NCBI GenBank assembly: GCA_965217625.1
Contig: OZ244557.1
Span: forward strand, 208,082 to 272,081
Reading direction: 5' to 3'
Length of the DNA stretch: 64,000 nucleotides
From: Dehalococcoidia bacterium
GTDB taxonomy: Bacteria; Chloroflexota; Dehalococcoidia; Bin125
Below the pieces are notes generated by a model, which saw nothing but the letters and a program-made list of their open reading frames with translations, did not search any database and had not been told where the DNA came from. The position numbers and the translations under genes were made by a program. The stretch's first letter is position 1. Every line of letters begins with the position of its first letter. Positions 4,434 to 62,727 of this stretch are shown piece by piece.

Positions 4434-4600
4434 GCCCTCACCTCATCTATTGCTCGGCCGTGTGGCCGGCCGATTGGGCGTCGCGACTGACCCGCGACGC
4501 CGGCTCACTGTGCCACGGCGCCCGATCGCGATCAACGCGCGGCGCGGCGGACGCGAGCGCGGGCGGCGTCGCGGATACACTGGCGACCTACACTGGGCGT

Positions 4601-5833: not shown

Positions 5834-8740
5834 TTAGGGGTCGCAGTCGGGGAGGGGGAGTTGGTCGAGGTCGTGGCTGTGGAGGTCGCGGAGGGCGGGG
5901 GGGATGCAGCCGGTCAGACCAGGGTTGCCGCTCAGATGGAGATGCAATAGGTCGTCCAACTCCGCGAACGCCAGGGGGATTGGTCCACTCAGTTGGTTGT
6001 TGTGGAGCAAGAGGGATTCCAGGTGGCGCAGCGACCCCAGTTCCGCCGGAATCGGGCCCGTCAGTTGATTGTCGTTCATAATCAGAATTCCCAACTCCGG
6101 CATTGAGCCCAGCGTCGCCGGGATCGGACCGCTGAGTTGGTTATCGGGCAGATCCAGCCGGTATAGACGCGGCAGGGATCCAAGCTGTGCGGGGATTGGT
6201 CCCGTGAGTTGGTTGCCGCCCAAGTTCAAGTACTCGAGATGCCGCAGCGCCGCTAGTTCGACGGGAATCGGCCCACTCAGTTGGTTGTGAGCAAGATCCA
6301 ACTGCCGCAAGTTGGGCAAGGATCCCAACTCCGAGGGGATCCCGCCCGTCAACTGGTTGCCGGCCAAACGCAGGGTCTTCAGGGTACCCAGGGAGCCGAG
6401 CGCCGCCGGGATCGCACCGCTGAGCAGGTTGTTCTGCAGACGCAGGAACTCCAGGGTGCCCAGGGATCCGAGCGCCGCCGGGATCGCGCCGCTGAGCAGG
6501 TTATCGTTGAGCGACAAGATCTGCAGCCTGGGTAGGGACGCGAGTTCGGCGGGGATCGCTCCGCTCAACTGGTTGTCGCTTAGGTCCAGAACCGAGAGTT
6601 TGGGCAGCGATCCGAGTTGGGCGGGAATCACCCCGGTCAGTCGATTGCGGCCTAGGTACAAGATTTCCAGTGAGTCAAGCGAACTCAACTCTGCCGGGAT
6701 CCCGCCCGTTAACTGGTTGCCGCTCAGGCTGAGGTGCGAAAGTTGGCTAAGGGATCCGAGCCATGCTGGGATCGCGCCGCTCAGCTGATTGCCGTTGAGC
6801 CCCAGGAGTCGCAGATCGCGCAGTGAGCGCAGCGCTGCCGGAATCGGGCCGCGCAGTTGGTTGTGGCTCAGACGCAGGTACTCCAACTCGTGCAGGGATC
6901 CCAGCGCTGCGGGGATCGGGCCAGTCAGCCGGTTGATCCCAAGCGACAGTGTCGTGAGATTGTGCAGGGTGCCCAGCGCCGCCGGGATGGGGCCGCCCAG
7001 TTGGTTGTCACTAAGGCCTAGGGAGGTGAGGTTGCGCAGAAATCCCAACTCCGCCGGGATTCCGCCTGTCAACCGGTTGTGCCCTAGGTACAGGGTCTCC
7101 AGGTCGCGCAGCGATGCCAGTTGCACGGGGATCGGCCCGGTCAGTTCGTTCGCGTCTAACTTCAGTGACCGCAGGGTTCTCATGGACCCCAGCCAGTCCG
7201 GGATCGGGCCCCTGAGATGGTTCCTGCGTAGGCTCAGATTCTCTAGCTTGCGCAGAGAGGCGAGTTCCGCCGGGATGGCGCCACTCAACTGGTTGAAGCC
7301 CAGCGACAGCTGGGTCAGATTGCGCAGAGCCCCCAGCGCCGCCGGGATCGGGCCGCTGAGGTCGTTGCTGTCCAGATCCAGATACCGCAGCTTGCGCAGA
7401 GAGGCGAGCTCCGCCGGAATGGTCCCACTCAACTGGTTGTAGTCCAGCGACAGTTCGGTCAGGTTGCGCAGCGCGCCAAGTGCTACGGGGATCGTCCCCG
7501 TCAGCTGGTTGCCGCGGAGCGACAGGGATTCGAGGTCGTGCAGCGCTCCGAGGTCCGGCGGGAGCAATCCCGTCAGTTCGTTGCGGCTGAGCCGCAAGAC
7601 CCTCAGGCCCGTCAGGCCAGCCAGTTGCGGTGGAATTCGGCCCGTGAGACCACGCAAGTGCAAGTCCAGTCCGGAGACGCGTAGCGGCGTGCCCCCGACG
7701 ATGAGCCCACCCCACTCCGCGATGGGAATGGCGGGATCCCAATTGAGGGGGGCGTCCCCTCGGAGCGTGTCCCGCGCGGCGAGCAGGGCGGCGCAATCCG
7801 AGACGAGGCCGGGGTTGTCGGCGGGGCTGGGCACGGCGACGCCGTTCTCGCAGGGCGGCGGGGGCGGCGGCGGCGGGCAGTCGGGCAGGGGCAGGTCGTC
7901 GAGGTCGTTGGAGGGGACGTCACGTAGCGCAAGCGGGACGCAGCCGCTAAGGCCGGGGTTGCGACTCAACTCCAGGTAGACCAAGTCTCCCAACTCCGCC
8001 AGCGCGGGCGGGATCGGACCGCTGAGGTCGTTGCTGCGCAGATAGAGCGTGGTCAGGAAGCGCAGGGATGCGAGTTCGGCCGGAATCGGGCCGCTGAGTT
8101 GGTTGTGGGACAGGGCCAGATTCCGGAGCGCGGACAGCGCCCCCAGTTCGGACGGGATCGAGCCGCTCAACTCGTTGCTCTGCAGCCACAGCGATTGCAG
8201 TTCCGGCAGGGAGCCCAGGGACGCGGGGATCGCGCCGCTGAGGCCGTTGTTGCTCAGCGCCAGGGACCGCAGCTTGCCCAGCGATCCCAGCGTCGCGGGG
8301 ATCGGACCGCCCAGTTGGTTGTGGTGCAGCCAGAGGTACCACAGGCCGCGCATGTCCCCCAGCGCCGCGGGGATCGGGCCCGACAGTTGGTTGAAGGACA
8401 GATCGAGGCGCCAGAGCGCGTCCAGGCCCGCCAGTCGGGCTGGGATCTGACCCGTGAGACCGTGGCGTGCCAGATCGAGCGTTCGCACGCGCGGCGGCTC
8501 GCCGGAGACGCCGACGCCGTCCCATTCGCGAATCGGCACGGACGCGTCCCAGTTGAGAACAGCGTCGCCGGCGAGGGCGTCCTTCGCGGCCAGCAGGATG
8601 TTGCAGTCGGCTACGAGAGCGGGGTTGAGGACGGCCGTACCGTCCTCGCAGGTGGGGGGCGCGGCCTGGGCCGGGCCGGACGCGAGGCCGGCCAGCAGCA
8701 GCGCGGCGAACAAGAAGAAGGAGAGGGCGCACTTCCGCAC
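5834..8740 (-). CDS. Secreted leucine-rich-repeat protein (968 aa) with two tandem modules. Each module has an N-terminal Cys-cap domain (PTCEDGTAV..DC..LLAAKDAL..LNW), many 24-aa plant-specific-type LRRs, and a C-terminal cap (SGNPGL[ST]GC[IV]P..LPDC). A poly-Pro linker joins the modules.
   Basis: Signal peptide MRKCALSFFLFAALLLAGLASGPAQA. Repeats LxxLxxLxLxxNxLSGxIPxxLGx are visible along the whole protein. The internal duplication is separated by PPPPPPPP. Confidence 0.8.
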   Translation of the reverse strand: MRKCALSFFLFAALLLAGLASGPAQAAPPTCEDGTAVLNPALVADCNILLAAKDALAGDAVLNWDASVPIREWDGVGVSGEPPRVRTLDLARHGLTGQIPARLAGLDALWRLDLSFNQLSGPIPAALGDMRGLWYLWLHHNQLGGPIPATLGSLGKLRSLALSNNGLSGAIPASLGSLPELQSLWLQSNELSGSIPSELGALSALRNLALSHNQLSGPIPAELASLRFLTTLYLRSNDLSGPIPPALAELGDLVYLELSRNPGLSGCVPLALRDVPSNDLDDLPLPDCPPPPPPPPCENGVAVPSPADNPGLVSDCAALLAARDTLRGDAPLNWDPAIPIAEWGGLIVGGTPLRVSGLDLHLRGLTGRIPPQLAGLTGLRVLRLSRNELTGLLPPDLGALHDLESLSLRGNQLTGTIPVALGALRNLTELSLDYNQLSGTIPAELASLRKLRYLDLDSNDLSGPIPAALGALRNLTQLSLGFNQLSGAIPAELASLRKLENLSLRRNHLRGPIPDWLGSMRTLRSLKLDANELTGPIPVQLASLRDLETLYLGHNRLTGGIPAELGFLRNLTSLGLSDNQLGGPIPAALGTLHNLTTLSLGINRLTGPIPAALGSLHELEYLRLSHNQLRGPIPAALRSLRDLRLLGLNGNQLSGAIPAWLGSLSQLSHLSLSGNQLTGGIPAELSSLDSLEILYLGRNRLTGVIPAQLGSLPKLSVLDLSDNQLSGAIPAELASLPRLQILSLNDNLLSGAIPAALGSLGTLEFLRLQNNLLSGAIPAALGSLGTLKTLRLAGNQLTGGIPSELGSLPNLRQLDLAHNQLSGPIPVELAALRHLEYLNLGGNQLTGPIPAQLGSLPRLYRLDLPDNQLSGPIPATLGSMPELGILIMNDNQLTGPIPAELGSLRHLESLLLHNNQLSGPIPLAFAELDDLLHLHLSGNPGLTGCIPPALRDLHSHDLDQLPLPDCDP

Positions 8741-19723: not shown

Positions 19724-20299
19724 ATGACGACGACGCAGCCGCCACCCCTGCCCCGCGGCCCCGACGCCCCGCCCCCGCCCGCCCTCCGGGTCGAGCCCGC
19801 GCGCCTCGCAGACGCCCCCGCCATCCAGCGCCTCATCCAGTACTGGGCCGACGAGACCGGCGACGTGCTGCCCCGCAGCGAGGGCGAGATCTACGGCACC
19901 CTGCGCGACTTCGTCGTCGTCCGCGACGGCGACCGCGTCGTGGCGGCCGGCGCGCTGCACATCGAGTGGAAGGACCTGGCCGAGGTCAAGTCGCTCGTCG
20001 TCGGCCCGGGGCAGCAGGGCCGCGGCCTCGGCCGCATCGTCGTCGAGGCGCTGCTGCAGGAGGCGCGCGGCCTGGGCCTGCGCACGGTCTTCGCCCTCAC
20101 CACCACGCCCGCCTTCTTCGAGCGCGTCGGCTTCCGGCAGGCCGCCGTCACGTCGTTCCCGCGCAAGGTCTGGAACGAGTGCTTCCGCTGCCCCAAGTAC
20201 GCCAACTGCGACGAGGTCGCGCTCTCCATCGACCTGGGCCCGCTGGCCACCGCGCCGGTCACCGCGCCGGCCACCACGACGGAGCGGGCCCCCGCGTGA
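19724..20299 (+). CDS. GNAT-family N-acetyltransferase (ArgA C-terminal-like / amino-acid N-acetyltransferase-like)
   Basis: Acetyl-CoA binding motif VGPGQQGRGLGRIVVEAL. Overall similarity to the N-acetylglutamate synthase GNAT domain. Confidence 0.7.
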   Translation: MTTTQPPPLPRGPDAPPPPALRVEPARLADAPAIQRLIQYWADETGDVLPRSEGEIYGTLRDFVVVRDGDRVVAAGALHIEWKDLAEVKSLVVGPGQQGRGLGRIVVEALLQEARGLGLRTVFALTTTPAFFERVGFRQAAVTSFPRKVWNECFRCPKYANCDEVALSIDLGPLATAPVTAPATTTERAPA

Positions 20300-20898
20300 G
20301 CGACCCGCTCCCGTCCGGCTTCGCCCCTCTCCACGAGGAGACCATCGCCAGCGAGCGCCTCTACGAGGGCCGCATCCTCAGCGTGCGCCGCGACACCCAG
20401 CGCCTCGCCGACGGCCGCCACGCCACCCGCGAGGTCGTCGAGCACGCCGCGGCCGTGGTCATCCTGGCCTTCGACGACGAGGGCCGCATCGCCTTCGTGC
20501 GGCAGTGGCGCTCCCCCGCCGGGGGGCCGCTGCTGGAGTTGCCCGCCGGCGGCGTCGAGCCGGGCGAGGCCCCCGAGGTCTGCGCCGCCCGCGAACTCCA
20601 GGAGGAGGCCGGGCTCAAGCCGGGCTCGCTCGAGCCGCTGCCGCGCTTCTACGTCGCGCCCGGCTGGGCCACCGAGTACCTGCACGGCTTCCTCGCCCGC
20701 GACTGCACGCCGTCGCGCCTGCCCGCCGACGCCGACGAACGCCTGCTCGTCGAGTACTACACCCTGGGCGAGGCCATGGACCTCGTCGCCGCCGGCGAGA
20801 TCGAGGACGCCAAGAGCATCGTCTGCCTGCAGGCCGTCGCGCTGCGGGCCGTCGGCGCCCTGGGCGTGAAGGTCATCCGCTTCTACGCGGGGGAGTAG
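20296..20898 (+). CDS. NUDIX hydrolase (ADP-ribose pyrophosphatase-like)
   Basis: Nudix box GGVEPGEAPEVCAARELQEEAGL. The GTG start overlaps the GNAT stop (GTGA). Confidence 0.8.
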   Translation: MSDPLPSGFAPLHEETIASERLYEGRILSVRRDTQRLADGRHATREVVEHAAAVVILAFDDEGRIAFVRQWRSPAGGPLLELPAGGVEPGEAPEVCAARELQEEAGLKPGSLEPLPRFYVAPGWATEYLHGFLARDCTPSRLPADADERLLVEYYTLGEAMDLVAAGEIEDAKSIVCLQAVALRAVGALGVKVIRFYAGE

Positions 20899-20935
20899 CG
20901 GTCGGCGGTCGCCGACCGCAAGGTATGATCGACGC

Positions 20936-21295
20936 ATGACCACACGCGCGAACTCCCACACGGATACTGCGAGCGAGTTCCTAACCAAGGCCCGCGCCCA
21001 CCTCGCCGAGGGAGATCTGCTGCAGGCCTCGGAGAAGGGATGGGGCGCAGCCTCGCAACTGGTCAAGGCCGTTGCTGAAACGCGCGGCTGGCGGCACTCC
21101 ACCCACGGCGACCTGTACCGCACGGTCGACCGCTTGGCGGACGAATTGCCCGGCCAGCGGCTGCGGCTTCTCTTCCGCTCGGCCAGCGCGTTGCACCAGA
21201 ACTTCTACGAGGGCGACATGCCCGAGAAGACCGTCGCCGACGGACTCGACGATATGGACGAGATCGTCGGCCGGCTGCAGGCGGTCATCGACTGA
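20936..21295 (+). CDS. HEPN-like / PaREP1-family small helical protein
   Basis: AEGDLLQASEKGWGAASQLVKAVAETRGWRHSTHG resembles the PaREP1 (HEPN-superfamily) signature. It sits inside a 29-bp direct-repeat-flanked cassette. Confidence 0.4.
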   Translation: MTTRANSHTDTASEFLTKARAHLAEGDLLQASEKGWGAASQLVKAVAETRGWRHSTHGDLYRTVDRLADELPGQRLRLLFRSASALHQNFYEGDMPEKTVADGLDDMDEIVGRLQAVID

Positions 21296-21437
21296 GCCGT
21301 CTTCGGGGCTCCGGTCCGCGTTCGGCCGTCGCGCTGCGGGCCGTCGGCGCCCCGCGCCACCACACCGTCTTGCTTGGCGCGGCTCGGCAGATCGTGAGTA
21401 TCGCCGGGTGGCGATAGGCGAGAGTGAGTGTCGGCTG

Positions 21438-21752
21438 ATGAAGTATCCGGCAATCATCGATGGTGAGAGGGGCGCCTACGGCGTCGTCATCCCCGACATG
21501 CCCGGAGCTTGCTGCGCGATGGGCAGCACAGTGGATGAGGCCCTGGCCGACGCAGAAGCGATGTTCCCCGAGTATGTCGCGGTGCTGGAGGAGAAGGGAG
21601 TGGCGATCCCTCCGCCCAGCGCCATGGCGGACATCGAGCTGGCAGCCGGCGAAATGCTGGCCTACGTGACACTGAAGATCCCCGCCCCCACGGCAGCTCC
21701 CTTCCGGTCCCCCCTCTCCATCGCTTCAGATGGAGAGGGGGTTAGGGGGTGA
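21438..21752 (+). CDS. HicB-family antitoxin-like protein (UPF0150/HicB_lk_antitox)
   Basis: MKYPAIIDGERGAYGVVIPDMPGACCAMGSTVDEALADAEAMFPEYV matches the HicB N-terminal signature (KYPAxIxxxxxGYxVxFPDLPGCxTxGxTxEEAL). Confidence 0.6.
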   Translation: MKYPAIIDGERGAYGVVIPDMPGACCAMGSTVDEALADAEAMFPEYVAVLEEKGVAIPPPSAMADIELAAGEMLAYVTLKIPAPTAAPFRSPLSIASDGEGVRG

Positions 21753-21874
21753 GGTTCCCCCCACGATCGCCCCCAGATAGCCAGCAAATTGAACGCCCCA
21801 GAGCCCCGGTGTACGATCGCCCCTGCCCACGCCCGGCCCGCCGCGGTCGGGCCCTTGCGACGGGAGAGGTCTGA

Positions 21875-23605
21875 GTGCTCCAACACGACGTCTTGATCGT
21901 CGGCTCCGGCCTCGCCGGCATGCGCGCCGCGCTCGCAGTCTCCGAGGACCCCGGCATCGACGTCGCCATCCTCACCAAGGTGCACCCGCTGCGATCCCAC
22001 TCCGGCGCGGCCCAGGGCGGCATCGCCGCCTCGCTCGGCAACTCCTCCGACGACGACTCGTGGGAGCTGCATATGTACGACACCGTCAAGGGCGGTGACT
22101 TCCTCGTCGACCAGAACGCCGCCGAGATCCTCGGCCGCGAGGCGCCCGAGAACATCTTCGAACTCGAGCACATGGGCTGCGCCTTCTCCCGCATGGACGA
22201 TGGCCGCATCGCGCAGCGCCGCTTCGGCGGCCACACCGCCCCGCGCGCCGTCTACGCCGCCGACCGCACCGGCCACGCCCTGCTCACCGTCCTCTTCGAG
22301 CAGCTGCTCAAGCGCGGCGTCAAGGTCTACAGCGAGTGGTACGTCCTCGACCTCGTCATCCGCGACAACACCTGCCAGGGCCTCGTCGCCTACGACATCC
22401 TCAGCGGGCAGATCGAGGCCATCCAGGCCAAGGCCGTCATGTTCGCCACCGGCGGCTACGGCCGCACCTTCCGCATCACGACCAACGCCTTCGCGTCCAC
22501 CGGCGACGGCGTCGTCATGGCCTACCGCGCCGGCATCCCCTTGCAGGACATGGAGTTCGTCCAGTTCCACCCCACCGGCCTGCAGGGTTCCGGCATCCTG
22601 CTCAGCGAGGCCGCCCGCGGCGAGGGCGCGCACCTCGTCAACGCCGAGGGCAAGCGCTTCATGGAGGACTACGCCCCCGGCCGCATGGAGCTCGCCCCGC
22701 GCGACATCGTCGCCCGCGCCGAGCAGTCCGAGATCGACGCCGGCCGCGGCGTCACCGACAAGGGCGACTCCGTCTTCATGGACCTGCGCCCCATCGGCGA
22801 GGAGCGCATCCGCTACGCCCTGCCCTCGGTGATGCACCTGGCCCGCGACTTCGTCGGCCTCGACCCCATCCAGGCCCCCATCCCCATCCAGCCCACCGCC
22901 CACTACTCGATGGGCGGCATCCCCTGCGACATCGGCGGCCAAGTGCGCCTCAAGGACCAGGACGACACGCCCATCACCGGCTTCTACGCCGCCGGCGAGT
23001 GCTCCTGCGTCTCCGTCCACGGGGCGAACCGGCTGGGCACCAACTCGCTGCTCGAGGCCGTCGTCTTCGGCCGCCGCACGGGCCGCGCCATCCGCGACCA
23101 GGTCCGCGACATCGCCCCCACGCGCATCACGGAGGGCGAGATGCAGCCCGCCATCGCCGAGGTCGCCCGCTTCATCCAGGGCGACGGCACCGAGAACGTC
23201 GGCGCCATCCGCGCCGAGCTGCGCGACGTGATGATGGACAAGTGCGGCGTCTTCCGCGAGGCCGGCCAGCTCGGGGAGTGCCTCAGCGACGTCAAGGATC
23301 TCCAGGCCCGCTTCGCCGCCGCCCGCATCGACGACCGCAACAGCACGTTCAACACCGACCTGCTCGACGCCATCGAGGTCGGCCACATGCTCGAATACTC
23401 CGAAGTGATCATCAGCGGCGCGATCAACCGCACCGAGAGCCGCGGCGGCCACGCCCGTCGCGACTTCCCCGCCCGCGACGACGAGCACTGGTTCAAGCAC
23501 ACGCTCGCCTATCGCACCGGCGACGGCCCCCGGCTCACCTACAGCGACGTCAACATGGCCCCGCGTCATCGCGAGGCCTACCCACCCGAGGAGCGCAAGT
23601 ACTGA
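21875..23605 (+). CDS. sdhA: Succinate dehydrogenase / fumarate reductase flavoprotein subunit
   Basis: FAD-binding [11 protein letters not shown]. Active-site HPTGL. 576 aa. Confidence 0.95.
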
Positions 23606-61357: not shown

Positions 61358-62026
61358 ATGCCCGACGACATCACCCTGCAGCTCGACCAACGCAGCGTCA
61401 CCGGCAAGCAGGTGCGCTACCTGCGACGCGACGGCATCATCCCCGGCAACGTCTACGGACGCGGCCTCGCCTCCGTCGCCGTCCAGGCCCCGCTGCGGGA
61501 GCTGCGGCGCGTCTTCCGCGGCCACGACCGCAACCAGGTCGTGAACGCGCAGATCGCCGGCGAGCCCGGCATCCGCCCCGTCGTTCTGCGCGACGTGCAG
61601 CGCCACCCGGTCACGCAGGACGTCGAGCACGTGGATCTCTACCACATCGACATCACGCGGCCCATCCACTCCAGCGCGACAGTGCACATCGTCGGCGAGG
61701 AGATCTGCCCGGCGATCATCCTCGGCGGCGTGCTCGTGCTCGGCCTCGGCTCGGTGATGCTCGAGGCCCTGCCCATGGACATGCCCTCCGACTTCACCAT
61801 CGACATCTCCCACCTCGAACACTTCGGCCAGAGCGTGCACGTCTCCGACCTCGACCTGCCCGCCGGAGTCCGCGCCCTTGCCGAGCCCACCGCGCAGCTC
61901 GCGACGATCATCGCGCCGCGCGTCGCGGAGGAGGACGAAGTCGAAGAGGAAGGCCTCGAGGAGGGCGTCGAGGGCGAGGAGGCCCCCGCCGATGCAGACG
62001 CCGCCGAGTCCGAAGCGAGCGCCTAA
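61358..62026 (+). CDS. rplY: Ribosomal protein L25 / general stress protein Ctc
   Basis: LQLDQRSVTGKQVRYLRRDGIIPGNVYGRG is the L25 N-terminus. The acidic C-terminal tail is typical of the Ctc form. Confidence 0.85.
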   Translation: MPDDITLQLDQRSVTGKQVRYLRRDGIIPGNVYGRGLASVAVQAPLRELRRVFRGHDRNQVVNAQIAGEPGIRPVVLRDVQRHPVTQDVEHVDLYHIDITRPIHSSATVHIVGEEICPAIILGGVLVLGLGSVMLEALPMDMPSDFTIDISHLEHFGQSVHVSDLDLPAGVRALAEPTAQLATIIAPRVAEEDEVEEEGLEEGVEGEEAPADADAAESEASA

Positions 62027-62250
62027 GGCACGGCCACGGGGCGCTCACCCGGCGCGAGCGCGCTCGGCACGGGGATCGGCTCGCCGTCGTCGATGCGCCC
62101 GGCGATCGCTTCCTCGAGGGCGTCGCGCGCTTCCGTGAGCGCCTCCGTTTCGTCGGCGCCGGACGTCAGGCACTCCGGCAGGTCGCGGAACGACACGACG
62201 ACCTCGGTGGGTCCCGTCTGATCCAGCCTGGCGGGGTAGACAAATCGCAT
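62023..62250 (-). CDS. HicB-family antitoxin-like protein (N-domain only)
   Basis: MRFVYPARLDQTGPTEVVVSFRDLPECLTSGADETEALTEARDALEEAI matches the HicB signature. Confidence 0.65.
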   Translation of the reverse strand: MRFVYPARLDQTGPTEVVVSFRDLPECLTSGADETEALTEARDALEEAIAGRIDDGEPIPVPSALAPGERPVAVP

Positions 62251-62352: not shown

Positions 62353-62727
62353 TCAGGGACGACTCGTCGCGACGTCGTCTACCGCCACATCGAGCAGCCT
62401 GGCAAGCGTGCTGAGCGTGTTCATCGATCCTGTCCGCTGGCCCCGCTCGATCTGGGAGAGGTAGACCGGGTTGATTCCGGCCGCGGCCGCCAGCTCCCGC
62501 TGCGTCATCCCGCGATACCTGCGATACACCCGGATGGGGGATTCCCCGGCCAGGATCCGGTCGGCCACGTCGATGGGGAAGGATTCGCCTCCCTCGCGGG
62601 CGGCGCGATCGTAGAGCTCCTCGTCGCTCAGCGCTGCGTCCCCGACCAAGTGCTCGTAGTCCCGCCAGGGGAGCACGGCGTACGCCGGGTTGCCGGCAGC
62701 GTCGACGATCACCTGCGGTCCGTTCAC
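62353..62727 (-). CDS. higA: HigA-like antitoxin with an XRE-type HTH
   Basis: HTH RGMTQRELAAAAGINPVYLSQIERGQRTGS. Located downstream of, and overlapping, a RelE/ParE-type toxin gene. Confidence 0.65.
   Translation of the reverse strand: MNGPQVIVDAAGNPAYAVLPWRDYEHLVGDAALSDEELYDRAAREGGESFPIDVADRILAGESPIRVYRRYRGMTQRELAAAAGINPVYLSQIERGQRTGSMNTLSTLARLLDVAVDDVATSRP

What the first reader, a model, noticed from the sequence alone, without database searches (positions are those of the whole stretch)
20832..21752. Perfect 29-bp direct repeat (20832-20860 and 21324-21352) brackets a cassette carrying a HEPN/PaREP1-like gene next to an orphan HicB-like gene
GGCCGTCGCGCTGCGGGCCGTCGGCGCCC occurs inside the 3' end of the NUDIX gene and again 492 bp downstream, after the PaREP1-like ORF. 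The duplicated target suggests a small insertion, or a site-specific or illegitimate recombination event, delivered a HEPN-like gene. It may have rebuilt the NUDIX C-terminus. It is followed by a HicB-fold gene, so this could be a non-canonical HEPN plus HicB-like pairing.
Basis: seen in the sequence. Interest (0 to 1): 0.5.

Follow-up and report, generated by a model that had tools for sequence, protein, structure and literature searches.

The report
Leftover duplicated gene end beside decayed toxin-antitoxin
The 29-base repeat is real: its second copy is a leftover piece of a duplicated end of the NUDIX gene, cut short by a deletion that also destroyed the hicA toxin gene, so this is ordinary genome scarring in a small variable gene island, not a new mobile element or a new toxin-antitoxin pair.

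Summary
GGCCGTCGCGCTGCGGGCCGTCGGCGCCC occurs exactly twice in the window (20832-20860 and 21324-21352), with none expected by chance. It brackets a gene with a clear PaREP1/HEPN fold, and a HicB-like gene follows.

- Copy 1 is native NUDIX coding sequence. The C-terminus after it is the ancestral one, so it was not rebuilt.
- Copy 2 is the stump of a second copy of the NUDIX 3' end. That copy is 52 to about 91 nt long in close relatives (Dehalococcoidia assemblies).
- In the window the stump runs in frame into the last 21 codons of a hicA toxin gene. A deletion removed the hicA promoter and codons 1-40, which is why hicB looks orphan.

Relatives show every state of this roughly 870-bp island between NUDIX and sdhA:
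- empty
- hicAB only
- PaREP1 only
- PaREP1 plus intact hicAB
- two tandem PaREP1 units bounded by three copies of the NUDIX end

The repeat therefore marks a roughly 492-495-bp unit that varies in copy number. The unit most likely arose by illegitimate recombination and was reshuffled by unequal recombination. I found no transposase, integrase or terminal inverted repeats. PaREP1 and hicB each occur without the other, so a HEPN-HicB pairing is not supported. Interest is low to moderate.

The parts
20299..20898 (+). NUDIX hydrolase gene (ADP-ribose pyrophosphatase-like); the native host gene with its ancestral C-terminus
   Evidence: Pfam NUDIX E 1.2e-19. NCBIfam hits to the NudE/YffH/AdpP group lie below the curated cut-offs. 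The C-terminus ...LQAVALRAVGALGVKVIRFYAGE is conserved in all homologues examined.
20832..20860 (+). Repeat copy 1: native NUDIX coding sequence (codons for AVALRAVGA)
   Evidence: The same sequence, with 1-3 substitutions, sits at the same place in NUDIX in L001-L005, which have no second copy.
20899..20935 (+). Spacer upstream of the PaREP1 gene, holding a conserved TATGAT box (20924-20929) 6 nt before the ATG. This may be a -10 element for a leaderless mRNA (inferred).
   Evidence: The motif g[gc]tatgat[tc]ga.c. followed by ATG also precedes PaREP1 in L002 and the six-gene PaREP1 array in L092. The sigma-70 consensus scan found no full promoter.
20936..21295 (+). PaREP1-family HEPN-fold gene (119 aa), with motif R81-x5-H87
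   Evidence: Pfam PaREP1 76.2 bits against a cut-off of 24.4. AlphaFold2 pLDDT 93. Foldseek best match 2q00 (TM 0.80), then HEPN structures 2hsb, 1ufb, 1o3u, 1wol. R81 is kept in 102 of 121 and H87 in 114 of 121 sequences (the window protein plus its 120 best homologues).
21296..21317 (+). 22-nt fragment homologous to the left flank of the hairpin element; it marks the end of the PaREP1 unit
   Evidence: In L002 the homologous sequence runs straight on into the hairpin. In the window it is cut off after ...ccggtcc.
21318..21323 (+). 6-nt filler (gcgttc) at the old duplication junction
   Evidence: Present at every displaced copy in the window, L081 (twice), L082, L083, L084 and L086, as g[ct]g[ct]tc. 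It matches neither parental flank.
21324..21352 (+). Repeat copy 2: truncated relic of a displaced second copy of the NUDIX 3' end
   Evidence: The displaced copy shares the same left boundary but is 52 nt in L082 and about 91 nt (with stop codon and spacer) in L086 and L081.
21352..21417 (+). hicA toxin pseudogene: 3' remnant (codons 41-61 plus stop), in frame with copy 2
   Evidence: tblastn with the intact HicA of L082 gives residues 41-61, 76% identity, at 21352-21414. The intact relative is Pfam HicA_toxin, 31.7 bits against a cut-off of 27.
21438..21752 (+). hicB antitoxin-like gene (104 aa). About 86 aa are native. The tail (from 21695) is read from the hairpin region after a 198-bp deletion.
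   Evidence: Pfam HicB_lk_antitox E 5.9e-10, profile positions 1-64 of 123. It is 88 aa in L082. The deletion junction at 21695 is defined against L001 7257-7454. dN/dS is about 0.05-0.2.
21711..21740 (+). Perfect 12-bp-stem hairpin CCCCTCTCCATC-gcttca-GATGGAGAGGGG at the right end of the island
   Evidence: It occurs once in every island-carrying locus and is absent from the empty-site loci. There is no T-run and no Rfam hit.
20899..21770 (.). The whole variable island between the NUDIX stop codon and the sdhA upstream region
   Evidence: L003, L004, L005 and L006 align up to window 20897/20898 and resume at window 21770-21772 (21806 for L006), with only about 20-70 nt of unaligned sequence in between. 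G+C dips to about 67%.
21875..23605 (+). sdhA/frdA flavoprotein gene; the conserved right-hand neighbour
   Evidence: Pfam FAD_binding_2 E 9e-111 and Succ_DH_flav_C E 2e-41.

Best explanation
The 29-bp repeat is a structural scar, not a functional site.

**The island.** In this group of uncultured Dehalococcoidia, the gap between the NUDIX gene and sdhA holds a small variable island. It carries a PaREP1-family HEPN gene, a hicA-hicB toxin-antitoxin pair with a small membrane ORF, or both.

**The founding event (inferred).** One illegitimate recombination event joined the end of a PaREP1 block to a point 67 nt before the NUDIX stop codon. The join lies 22 nt into the flank of the hairpin and carries 6 filler bases. 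The product had the layout: NUDIX, PaREP1, a second copy of the NUDIX 3' end, then hicA, hicB, the small ORF, the hairpin and sdhA. The left boundary of the displaced copy is identical in all six assemblies that carry it, which indicates a single origin (shown).

**Copy-number change (shown).** Once two direct copies of the NUDIX end flank PaREP1, unequal homologous recombination can add or remove the roughly 495-bp unit. One relative has two units and three copies of the NUDIX end.

**Later deletions (shown).** Separate deletions with short microhomology at the junctions then ate into the displaced copy from its right-hand side.
- In L082 the deletion stops before the hicA promoter.
- In L086 and L081 it runs from 19 nt past the copied stop codon into hicA.
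- In the window, L083 and L084 it runs from base 28-29 of the copy into hicA codon 40-41.

**Result in the window.** That last deletion left the 29-mer fused in frame to the last 21 hicA codons and made hicB an orphan. A further 198-bp deletion removed the small ORF and gave the window's HicB a tail read from the hairpin.

**Function (inferred).** NUDIX is untouched. PaREP1 is probably expressed from its own conserved TATGAT box. hicB, stripped of the hicA promoter, can only be transcribed by read-through from PaREP1 or from a cryptic promoter. It survives as an orphan antitoxin, still under purifying selection.
For: - **Repeat is exact and unique:**
- **NUDIX C-terminus is ancestral:**, and the native copies.
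- **Empty sites:** L003-L006.
- **hicAB only:** L001, with an intact 61-aa HicA.
- **PaREP1 only:** L002, with one 29-mer, and PaREP1 followed directly by the hairpin.
- **PaREP1 plus intact hicAB:** L082. It has a 52-nt second copy of the NUDIX end joined to the hicA promoter region.
- **About 91-nt displaced copy:** L086. The copy includes the stop codon and 19 nt of spacer and is joined to a hicA remnant.
- **Two PaREP1 genes:** L081. It has three NUDIX-end copies at 4537, 5032 and 5527, a period of 495 bp. The two PaREP1 copies differ at 19 nt, and copy 1 matches the L086 allele except at 2 synonymous sites. This points to unequal recombination between alleles.
- **The window's junction is not an assembly quirk:** L083 and L084, from other samples, share it and have since diverged.
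- **hicA remnant in the window:** 21352-21414 encodes HicA residues 41-61.
- **No mobile-element genes:** within about 4 kb on either side the neighbours are clpP, clpX, ftsJ, NAD kinase, GNAT, sdhA and sdhB.
- **hicB is still constrained:** dN/dS is 0.15-0.21 between loci that share the window's junction.
Against: - The founding event is inferred and was not observed. No assembly was found with the full predicted intermediate, that is, a complete displaced NUDIX end followed by the truncated small ORF and an intact hicA.
- A tandem duplication in a PaREP1-bearing ancestor followed by deletion, or Campbell-type integration of a small circle carrying the NUDIX end, would give the same product.
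- The two deletions into hicA end only 3 nt apart. That is a striking coincidence if they are independent. I could not derive one junction from the other, but a shared history blurred by gene conversion is not excluded.
- The window's copy 2 is identical to its own copy 1. The displaced copies in L082, L086 and L081 carry the variant GGGGCGC. This implies gene conversion or a different allelic origin.
- Breakpoints are ambiguous by 1-3 nt. In L083 and L084, position 29 of the copy is T.
- Expression of hicB and PaREP1 was not tested.
Confidence: 0.8

Rival explanations
1. A small mobile or site-specifically integrating cassette delivered the PaREP1 gene into the 3' end of NUDIX. In this reading the 29-mer is the duplicated target or att core.
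For: - The unit is present or absent among close relatives, and empty sites exist.
- G+C is lower across the island.
- PaREP1 genes are multi-copy in these genomes and share a conserved 5' leader.
Against: - The duplicated segment is 28-29, 52 or about 91 nt in different relatives. It includes the NUDIX stop codon and downstream spacer, so it is a duplicated gene end and not a fixed core.
- There is no integrase or transposase within about 4 kb on either side.
- No inverted repeat pairs the two ends of the unit.
- In L002 the same PaREP1 gene sits at this locus with no second copy of the 29-mer.
- The 24-nt core is not dispersed.
- The PaREP1 array in L092 shares only the short promoter-like leader, and its 3' flank is unrelated.
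Confidence: 0.08
2. PaREP1 (a HEPN RNase-like toxin) and HicB have become a new functional toxin-antitoxin pair after the loss of hicA.
For: - Every locus with an orphan hicB has PaREP1 immediately upstream on the same strand (window, L083, L084, L086, L081).
- No terminator is predicted between the two genes.
- hicB keeps an intact ORF with dN/dS below 1.
- PaREP1 keeps an R-x5-H motif.
Against: - PaREP1 occurs alone in L002 and as a six-gene array with no partner in L092, so it needs no adjacent antitoxin.
- hicB's own partner is visible as a remnant and is intact in L082, where PaREP1 is also present.
- The juxtaposition is explained by deletions whose left end lies in the displaced NUDIX copy, which exists only in PaREP1-bearing loci.
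- From general knowledge of HicAB systems (not tested here), HicB neutralises HicA by direct binding, and I know of no case where it acts on a HEPN protein.
Confidence: 0.05
3. The 29 nt were copied afresh, as templated filler DNA, from the nearby NUDIX gene during repair of the break that deleted hicA.
For: - The source sequence lies only 492 bp upstream.
- The copy is identical to the window's own copy 1, whereas the displaced copies in L082, L086 and L081 carry a variant.
Against: - The left boundary, including the 6-nt filler g[ct]g[ct]tc and the 22-nt hairpin-flank fragment, is identical to that of the longer displaced copies in L082, L086 and L081.
- The copy was therefore already there and was shortened. 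Independent filler synthesis would not reproduce the same left junction.
Confidence: 0.03
4. Assembly artefact: a chimeric join of strain variants at a shared 29-mer.
For: - The source is evidently an uncultured population with many co-existing alleles of this island.
Against: - The same junction type is present in two other independent assemblies from different samples (L083 from ERZ26167216, L084 from ERZ25069155).
- Those assemblies carry their own substitutions in the copy and in the hicA remnant.
Confidence: 0.02

Closest known systems
Direct repeats that flank a segment and drive its duplication or loss by unequal homologous recombination
   Same: - Two direct copies of a host sequence flank a unit.
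- Relatives carry 0, 1 or 2 units, and the two-unit locus has 3 repeat copies at a constant 495-bp period.
   Different: - The repeat is very short in the window (29 nt), because a later deletion trimmed it.
- At that length, further RecA-type exchange is unlikely.
- The two units in L081 are different alleles, so the exchange was between strains and not within one chromosome.
HicAB type II toxin-antitoxin system (Pfam PF07927 HicA_toxin, PF15919 HicB_lk_antitox) and its decay to an orphan antitoxin
   Same: - hicA lies immediately upstream of hicB in the intact relatives.
- Both proteins hit the family models above the curated cut-offs.
- Loss of the toxin leaves an orphan antitoxin, a familiar outcome of toxin-antitoxin decay (general knowledge).
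   Different: - The HicB here is short (88 aa in L082) and lacks the C-terminal DNA-binding domain. It matches only profile positions 1-64 of 123.
- Relatives add a third, overlapping 60-aa membrane ORF.
- In the window hicA is a 21-codon remnant.
[quoted passage not shown] 2013, PMC3710099; Makarova et al. 2009, PMC2701414)
   Same: - The sequence and the predicted fold both match the family.
- Members are multi-copy and form tandem arrays, as described for archaea (PMC3710099).
- The genes are not in an operon with an MNT nucleotidyltransferase, as in Pyrobaculum (PMC2701414).
   Different: - This is a bacterial (Dehalococcoidia) subfamily, whereas the family was described as archaeal.
- The arginine of the Rx4-6H motif is reported as lacking in the family, but it is present here and mostly conserved (R81 in 102 of 121).
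Integrative elements that duplicate the 3' end of their target gene (attL/attR)
   Same: - The 3' end of a gene is duplicated on either side of inserted DNA, and the host gene stays intact.
   Different: - There is no integrase.
- The insert is only about 460 bp.
- The duplicated length varies among relatives, and the copy includes post-stop spacer sequence.

Membership tests
PaREP1 family / HEPN superfamily | Match to the Pfam PF05942 model above the gathering score | tested here: met
   76.2 bits against a cut-off of 24.4, E 2.5e-21, profile positions 3-115 of 115. The generic HEPN model PF05168 scores 17.1 bits, below its cut-off of 22.
PaREP1 family / HEPN superfamily | All-alpha up-down helical bundle of the HEPN fold | tested here: met
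   The AlphaFold2 model has pLDDT 93.2 and five helices. Foldseek matches, in order: 2q00 (TM 0.80), 2hsb (TM 0.86), 1ufb, 1o3u, 1wol, the sacsin HEPN domain, and MntA-HepT.
PaREP1 family / HEPN superfamily | Rx4-6H catalytic motif | tested here: met
   The window protein has R81-SASAL-H87. Among the window protein plus its 120 best homologues, R is kept in 102 of 121, H in 114 of 121 and N89 in 121 of 121. Of the six array paralogues in L092, only the last keeps both R and H; two keep one of them and three keep neither.
PaREP1 family / HEPN superfamily | RNase activity or toxicity | not testable with these tools
   This needs an experiment.
HEPN-MNT toxin-antitoxin system | Adjacent minimal nucleotidyltransferase (MNT) partner gene | tested here: not met
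   The neighbours are NUDIX and the hicA remnant plus hicB. No nucleotidyltransferase gene appears in any of the related loci.
HicAB type II toxin-antitoxin | Intact hicA toxin gene | tested here: not met
   Only codons 41-61 remain, at 21352-21417. Intact 61-aa genes are present in L001 and L082.
HicAB type II toxin-antitoxin | HicB N-terminal antitoxin domain | tested here: met
   PF15919 scores 39.8 bits against a cut-off of 27, covering residues 3-66.
HicAB type II toxin-antitoxin | HicB C-terminal DNA-binding domain (RHH or HTH) | tested here: not met
   Only profile positions 1-64 of 123 are matched. The native protein is 88 aa in L082. The window's extra 17 residues come from the hairpin region after a deletion.
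Transposable element with target-site duplication | Transposase, terminal inverted repeats, and a fixed-length duplication | tested here: not met
   No inverted repeat pairs the two ends of the unit. The flanking genes are housekeeping genes. The duplication length is 28-29, 52 or about 91 nt in different relatives.
Integrase-mediated integration at a gene 3' end | Tyrosine or serine recombinase gene and a constant att core at both ends | tested here: not met
   No recombinase lies within about 4 kb. The extent of the repeat varies among relatives. L002 carries the PaREP1 gene with no second copy.

The most novel reading that the evidence does not exclude
The NUDIX-end repeats turn the PaREP1 gene into a copy-number-variable unit, and this locus catches the birth of a PaREP1 tandem array like the six-gene array found elsewhere in the same genomes. 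In addition, the repeated loss of hicA with retention of a constrained hicB just downstream of PaREP1 may reflect selection for an orphan antitoxin. That antitoxin could work as an anti-addiction module against other hicA copies, or as a new partner co-transcribed with the HEPN protein.
Probability: 0.1. Interest if true: 0.5.

Novelty: new member of a known kind. Interest (0 to 1): 0.25.

Why it matters
This is mainly a clean worked example. A perfect short repeat that looks like a target-site duplication turns out to be the trimmed remnant of a duplicated gene end. An apparently orphan antitoxin turns out to sit beside the stump of its own toxin gene. Annotators should not call a mobile element or a new HEPN-HicB system here.

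The wider context has some modest interest:
- An 870-bp hotspot in an uncultured Dehalococcoidia population shows at least six structural alleles, built by illegitimate recombination, unequal exchange between alleles, and deletions with short microhomology.
- A bacterial PaREP1 subfamily keeps an R-x5-H motif and forms tandem arrays, as its archaeal relatives do.

Tried and rejected
- **Exact-sequence look-ups of the window's proteins.** The window's NUDIX and PaREP1 proteins are not on record. Relatives were reached through homologues instead.
- **JGI metagenome scan with the 24-nt core.** It returned only 5 unrelated single hits. This is useful as a negative result (not a dispersed repeat) but it gave no new alleles.
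- **Rfam and consensus scans of 20700-21950.** There was no Rfam hit, no sigma-70 promoter and no terminator. The hairpin is not a recognisable terminator or RNA family.
- **NCBIfam.** No model matched PaREP1, HicB, HicA or the small membrane ORF.
- **Deriving the window's junction from the L086/L081 junction.** I tried a second deletion between the two GTCGGCG heptamers (by eye, from the sequences). The predicted product differs from the observed sequence at 5 consecutive positions, so I treat the two junctions as separate events, with reservations.
Full report
**1. The observation**

The 29-mer GGCCGTCGCGCTGCGGGCCGTCGGCGCCC is present exactly twice in the window, at 20832-20860 and 21324-21352. 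No other match appears with up to 3 mismatches, and none appears in 100 dinucleotide-preserving shuffles. Beyond the 29 nt the flanks diverge at once, apart from a weak extension to 32 of 34 nt.

Pfam places the genes as follows:
- Copy 1 lies inside the 3' end of a NUDIX gene (20299-20898, E 1.2e-19).
- The bracketed ORF (20936-21295, 119 aa) is PaREP1 (E 2.5e-21, 76 bits against a cut-off of 24.4). It also hits HEPN weakly.
- The following ORF (21438-21752, 104 aa) is HicB_lk_antitox (E 5.9e-10), matching only profile positions 1-64 of 123.
- The right-hand neighbour (21875-23605) is an sdhA/frdA flavoprotein gene.

G+C drops from about 75% to about 67% over 20900-21800.

**2. Which copy is native**

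All NUDIX homologues I examined end with ...LQA[VLI]AL[RQ]A[VL]G[AP]LGxKV[IV]RFYxG[ED]. This holds down to about 65% identity. It also holds in genomes where NUDIX is followed directly by sdhA. The window's C-terminus after copy 1 (LGVKVIRFYAGE) is therefore ancestral. Copy 2 is the ectopic one.

**3. What lies after copy 2**

The 66 nt that follow copy 2 (window 21352-21417) read in frame with it as ...AVGA-PRHHTVLLGAARQIVSIAGWR-stop. In the close relatives L001 and L082 the same position holds an intact 61-aa gene ending ...PRHRTVSIGVARQIASIAGWR. That protein is Pfam HicA_toxin (31.7 bits against a cut-off of 27, E 1.6e-7). tblastn with it finds residues 41-61 at window 21352-21414, at 76% identity.

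So hicB in the window is orphan because the first 40 codons and the promoter of its own toxin gene were deleted. Copy 2 of the repeat sits exactly at that deletion junction. The microhomology there is only 1-2 nt (CC).

**4. The comparative series**

A scan of one genome per species with the NUDIX protein found five close Dehalococcoidia assemblies and one more distant relative. Exact-protein look-ups added five distinct metagenomic alleles. blastn and direct reading give these layouts between NUDIX and sdhA:

| Loci | Layout between NUDIX and sdhA |
|---|---|
| L003, L004, L005, L006 | Empty: about 20-70 nt, no hairpin |
| L001 | Truncated small ORF, hicA, hicB, 60-aa membrane ORF, hairpin. 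One 29-mer only. |
| L002 | Long spacer, PaREP1, hairpin. One 29-mer only. |
| L082 | PaREP1; second copy of the NUDIX 3' end (52 nt) joined to the hicA promoter region; intact hicA, hicB, small ORF, hairpin |
| L086 | PaREP1; second copy of about 91 nt (rest of the coding sequence, stop codon, 19 nt of spacer) joined to a hicA remnant; hicB, small ORF, hairpin |
| L081 (same contig as L085) | As L086, but with two PaREP1 genes and three copies of the NUDIX end at 4537, 5032 and 5527 (period 495 bp), and no small ORF |
| Window, L083, L084 | PaREP1; a 28-29-nt copy joined to a hicA remnant; hicB fused to the hairpin region |

In all six assemblies with a displaced copy, the left boundary is the same. 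It consists of 22 nt of the hairpin's left flank, 6 filler bases (g[ct]g[ct]tc), and then GGCCGTC.... That junction arose once. The right ends differ, so they are later deletions.

**5. How the structure most likely arose**

- **Founding event (inferred).** One illegitimate recombination joined a PaREP1-plus-hairpin block, as in L002, to a point inside NUDIX of a hicAB-bearing chromosome, as in L001. This created direct repeats of the NUDIX end around PaREP1. A tandem duplication followed by deletion, or Campbell-type integration of a small circle carrying the NUDIX end, would give the same product. I cannot tell these apart.
- **Copy-number change (shown).** The repeats allow unequal exchange, and L081 has two units. 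Its two PaREP1 copies differ at 19 nt, and copy 1 matches the L086 allele except at 2 synonymous sites. The exchange was therefore between different alleles in the population.
- **Deletions into the displaced copy (shown).** There are three distinct junctions. The L086 type shows a CGCC microhomology, possibly extended by ACCGCA, and the L082 type shows TCCG (read by eye).
- **A further deletion in the window (shown).** 198 bp were lost at 21695 (L001 7257-7454). This removed the small ORF and gives the window's HicB a 17-residue tail read from the hairpin.
- **Mosaic alleles.** L084 has the L002-type long spacer upstream of PaREP1 and the window-type junction downstream. L081 and L086 share a junction but differ in the small ORF. 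Recombination among strains is frequent here.

**6. Alternatives**

- **Transposon or integrase-borne cassette.** This does not fit. The duplicated length varies and includes post-stop spacer. No inverted repeat pairs the two ends of the unit. Neighbours within about 4 kb are clpP, clpX, ftsJ, NAD kinase, GNAT, sdhA and sdhB. L002 has the gene with no second copy. The core is not a dispersed repeat.
- **Freshly templated filler.** The shared left junction contradicts it.
- **Assembly error.** Two independent assemblies carry the same junction with their own substitutions.
- **An evolved PaREP1-HicB pair.** PaREP1 stands alone in L002 and forms a partner-less six-gene array in L092. In addition, hicB's true partner is still visible in the window. 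What remains of the idea is this: every orphan hicB lies just downstream of PaREP1, no terminator is predicted between them, and hicB is still constrained. dN/dS is 0.15-0.21 among the loci that share the window's junction and 0.02-0.2 against loci with an intact hicA. Three comparisons involving L084, L081 and L086 rest on only 4-13 differences and give higher values, 0.39-0.98. I give this reading about 5%.

**7. The PaREP1 protein**

- **Fold.** The AlphaFold2 model is confident (pLDDT 93.2, five helices). Its best structural match is 2q00, which Anantharaman et al. list as the structure of the PaREP1/8 family (TM 0.80). HEPN domains follow: 2hsb, 1ufb, 1o3u, 1wol, sacsin and MntA-HepT. Sequence search of the PDB finds only 2jpu/2q00, at E 0.007.
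- **Motif.** The protein has an R81-x5-H87 motif. Among the window protein plus its 120 best homologues, R is kept in 102 of 121 and H in 114 of 121.
- **Literature.** Anantharaman et al. 2013 describe the archaeal PaREP1/8 family as lacking the R, and as occurring in tandem gene repeats (PMC3710099). Makarova et al. 2009 note its expansion in Pyrobaculum without an MNT partner (PMC2701414).
- **Tandem arrays here.** The same habit is seen in these bacteria. L092 lies about 180 kb from the NUDIX locus in the L001 genome. It carries six overlapping PaREP1 genes that are 44-92% identical, and only the last keeps both R and H of the motif.

**8. Verdict**

The repeat is real and non-random, but it is a scar. 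It is the trimmed remnant of a duplicated NUDIX 3' end that flanks a copy-number-variable PaREP1 unit, and it is fused to the stump of a deleted hicA gene. The components are new members of known kinds:
- a bacterial PaREP1/HEPN gene
- a decayed HicAB module
- duplication and deletion mediated by direct repeats

Interest is low to moderate (0.25). The most novel reading I cannot exclude has a probability of about 0.1. It is that this locus shows a PaREP1 array being born, and that the orphan hicB is retained for a function.

Noticed in passing
L092 1221-3360 (same contig as L001, about 180 kb from the NUDIX locus); L093 201-1629: A tandem array of six 119-aa PaREP1 genes lies between prmC and an IMPDH-like gene. 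The genes have 4-nt ATGA overlaps and are 44-92% identical to each other. Only the last copy keeps both R and H of the R-x5-H motif, and that copy is the closest paralogue of the window's gene (74%). L093 has the same array with one frameshifted copy.
   Followed up: partly
L001 7262-7444 and 6627-6758; L082 5593-5775; L086 3816-3998: A 60-aa predicted membrane ORF overlaps the hicB stop codon (ATGA) in relatives and has no Pfam or NCBIfam match. L001 also carries a truncated paralogue upstream of hicA. This may be a third component of this hicAB module. It is deleted from the window.
   Followed up: partly
window 21711-21740: A perfect 12-bp-stem hairpin, CCCCTCTCCATC-gcttca-GATGGAGAGGGG, is followed by GTTAGGGGGTGAGG. 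It occurs once in every island-carrying locus and in no empty-site locus. It has no T-run and no Rfam match. Its role is unknown; it could be the end of the island or a REP-like element.
   Followed up: partly
window 62023-62250 (-) and 62353-62727 (-): A second, 75-aa HicB-like ORF (37% identical to the first over 62 residues) lies next to a 124-aa ORF that looks like a helix-turn-helix protein, and abuts what looks like a ribosomal protein L25 gene. These last two identifications were made by eye and no family search was run. This may be another small toxin-antitoxin-like module.
   Followed up: no
window 20924-20929; L002 about 6688-6693; L092 about 1207-1212: A conserved TATGAT box lies 6 nt upstream of the PaREP1 ATG at three different loci. 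This suggests a -10 element driving a leaderless mRNA.
   Followed up: no
L081 4644-5003 and 5139-5498: The two tandem PaREP1 copies are different alleles (19 nt differences). Copy 1 matches the L086 allele except at 2 synonymous sites. The duplication therefore came from unequal exchange between strains, not from a recent slip within one chromosome.
   Followed up: yes
L084 201-760: L084 combines the L002-type long spacer upstream of PaREP1 (repeat spacing 558 bp; the gene is called as 131 aa) with the window-type junction downstream. The window's short spacer therefore looks like a derived deletion of about 66 nt, and the alleles are mosaic.
   Followed up: partly
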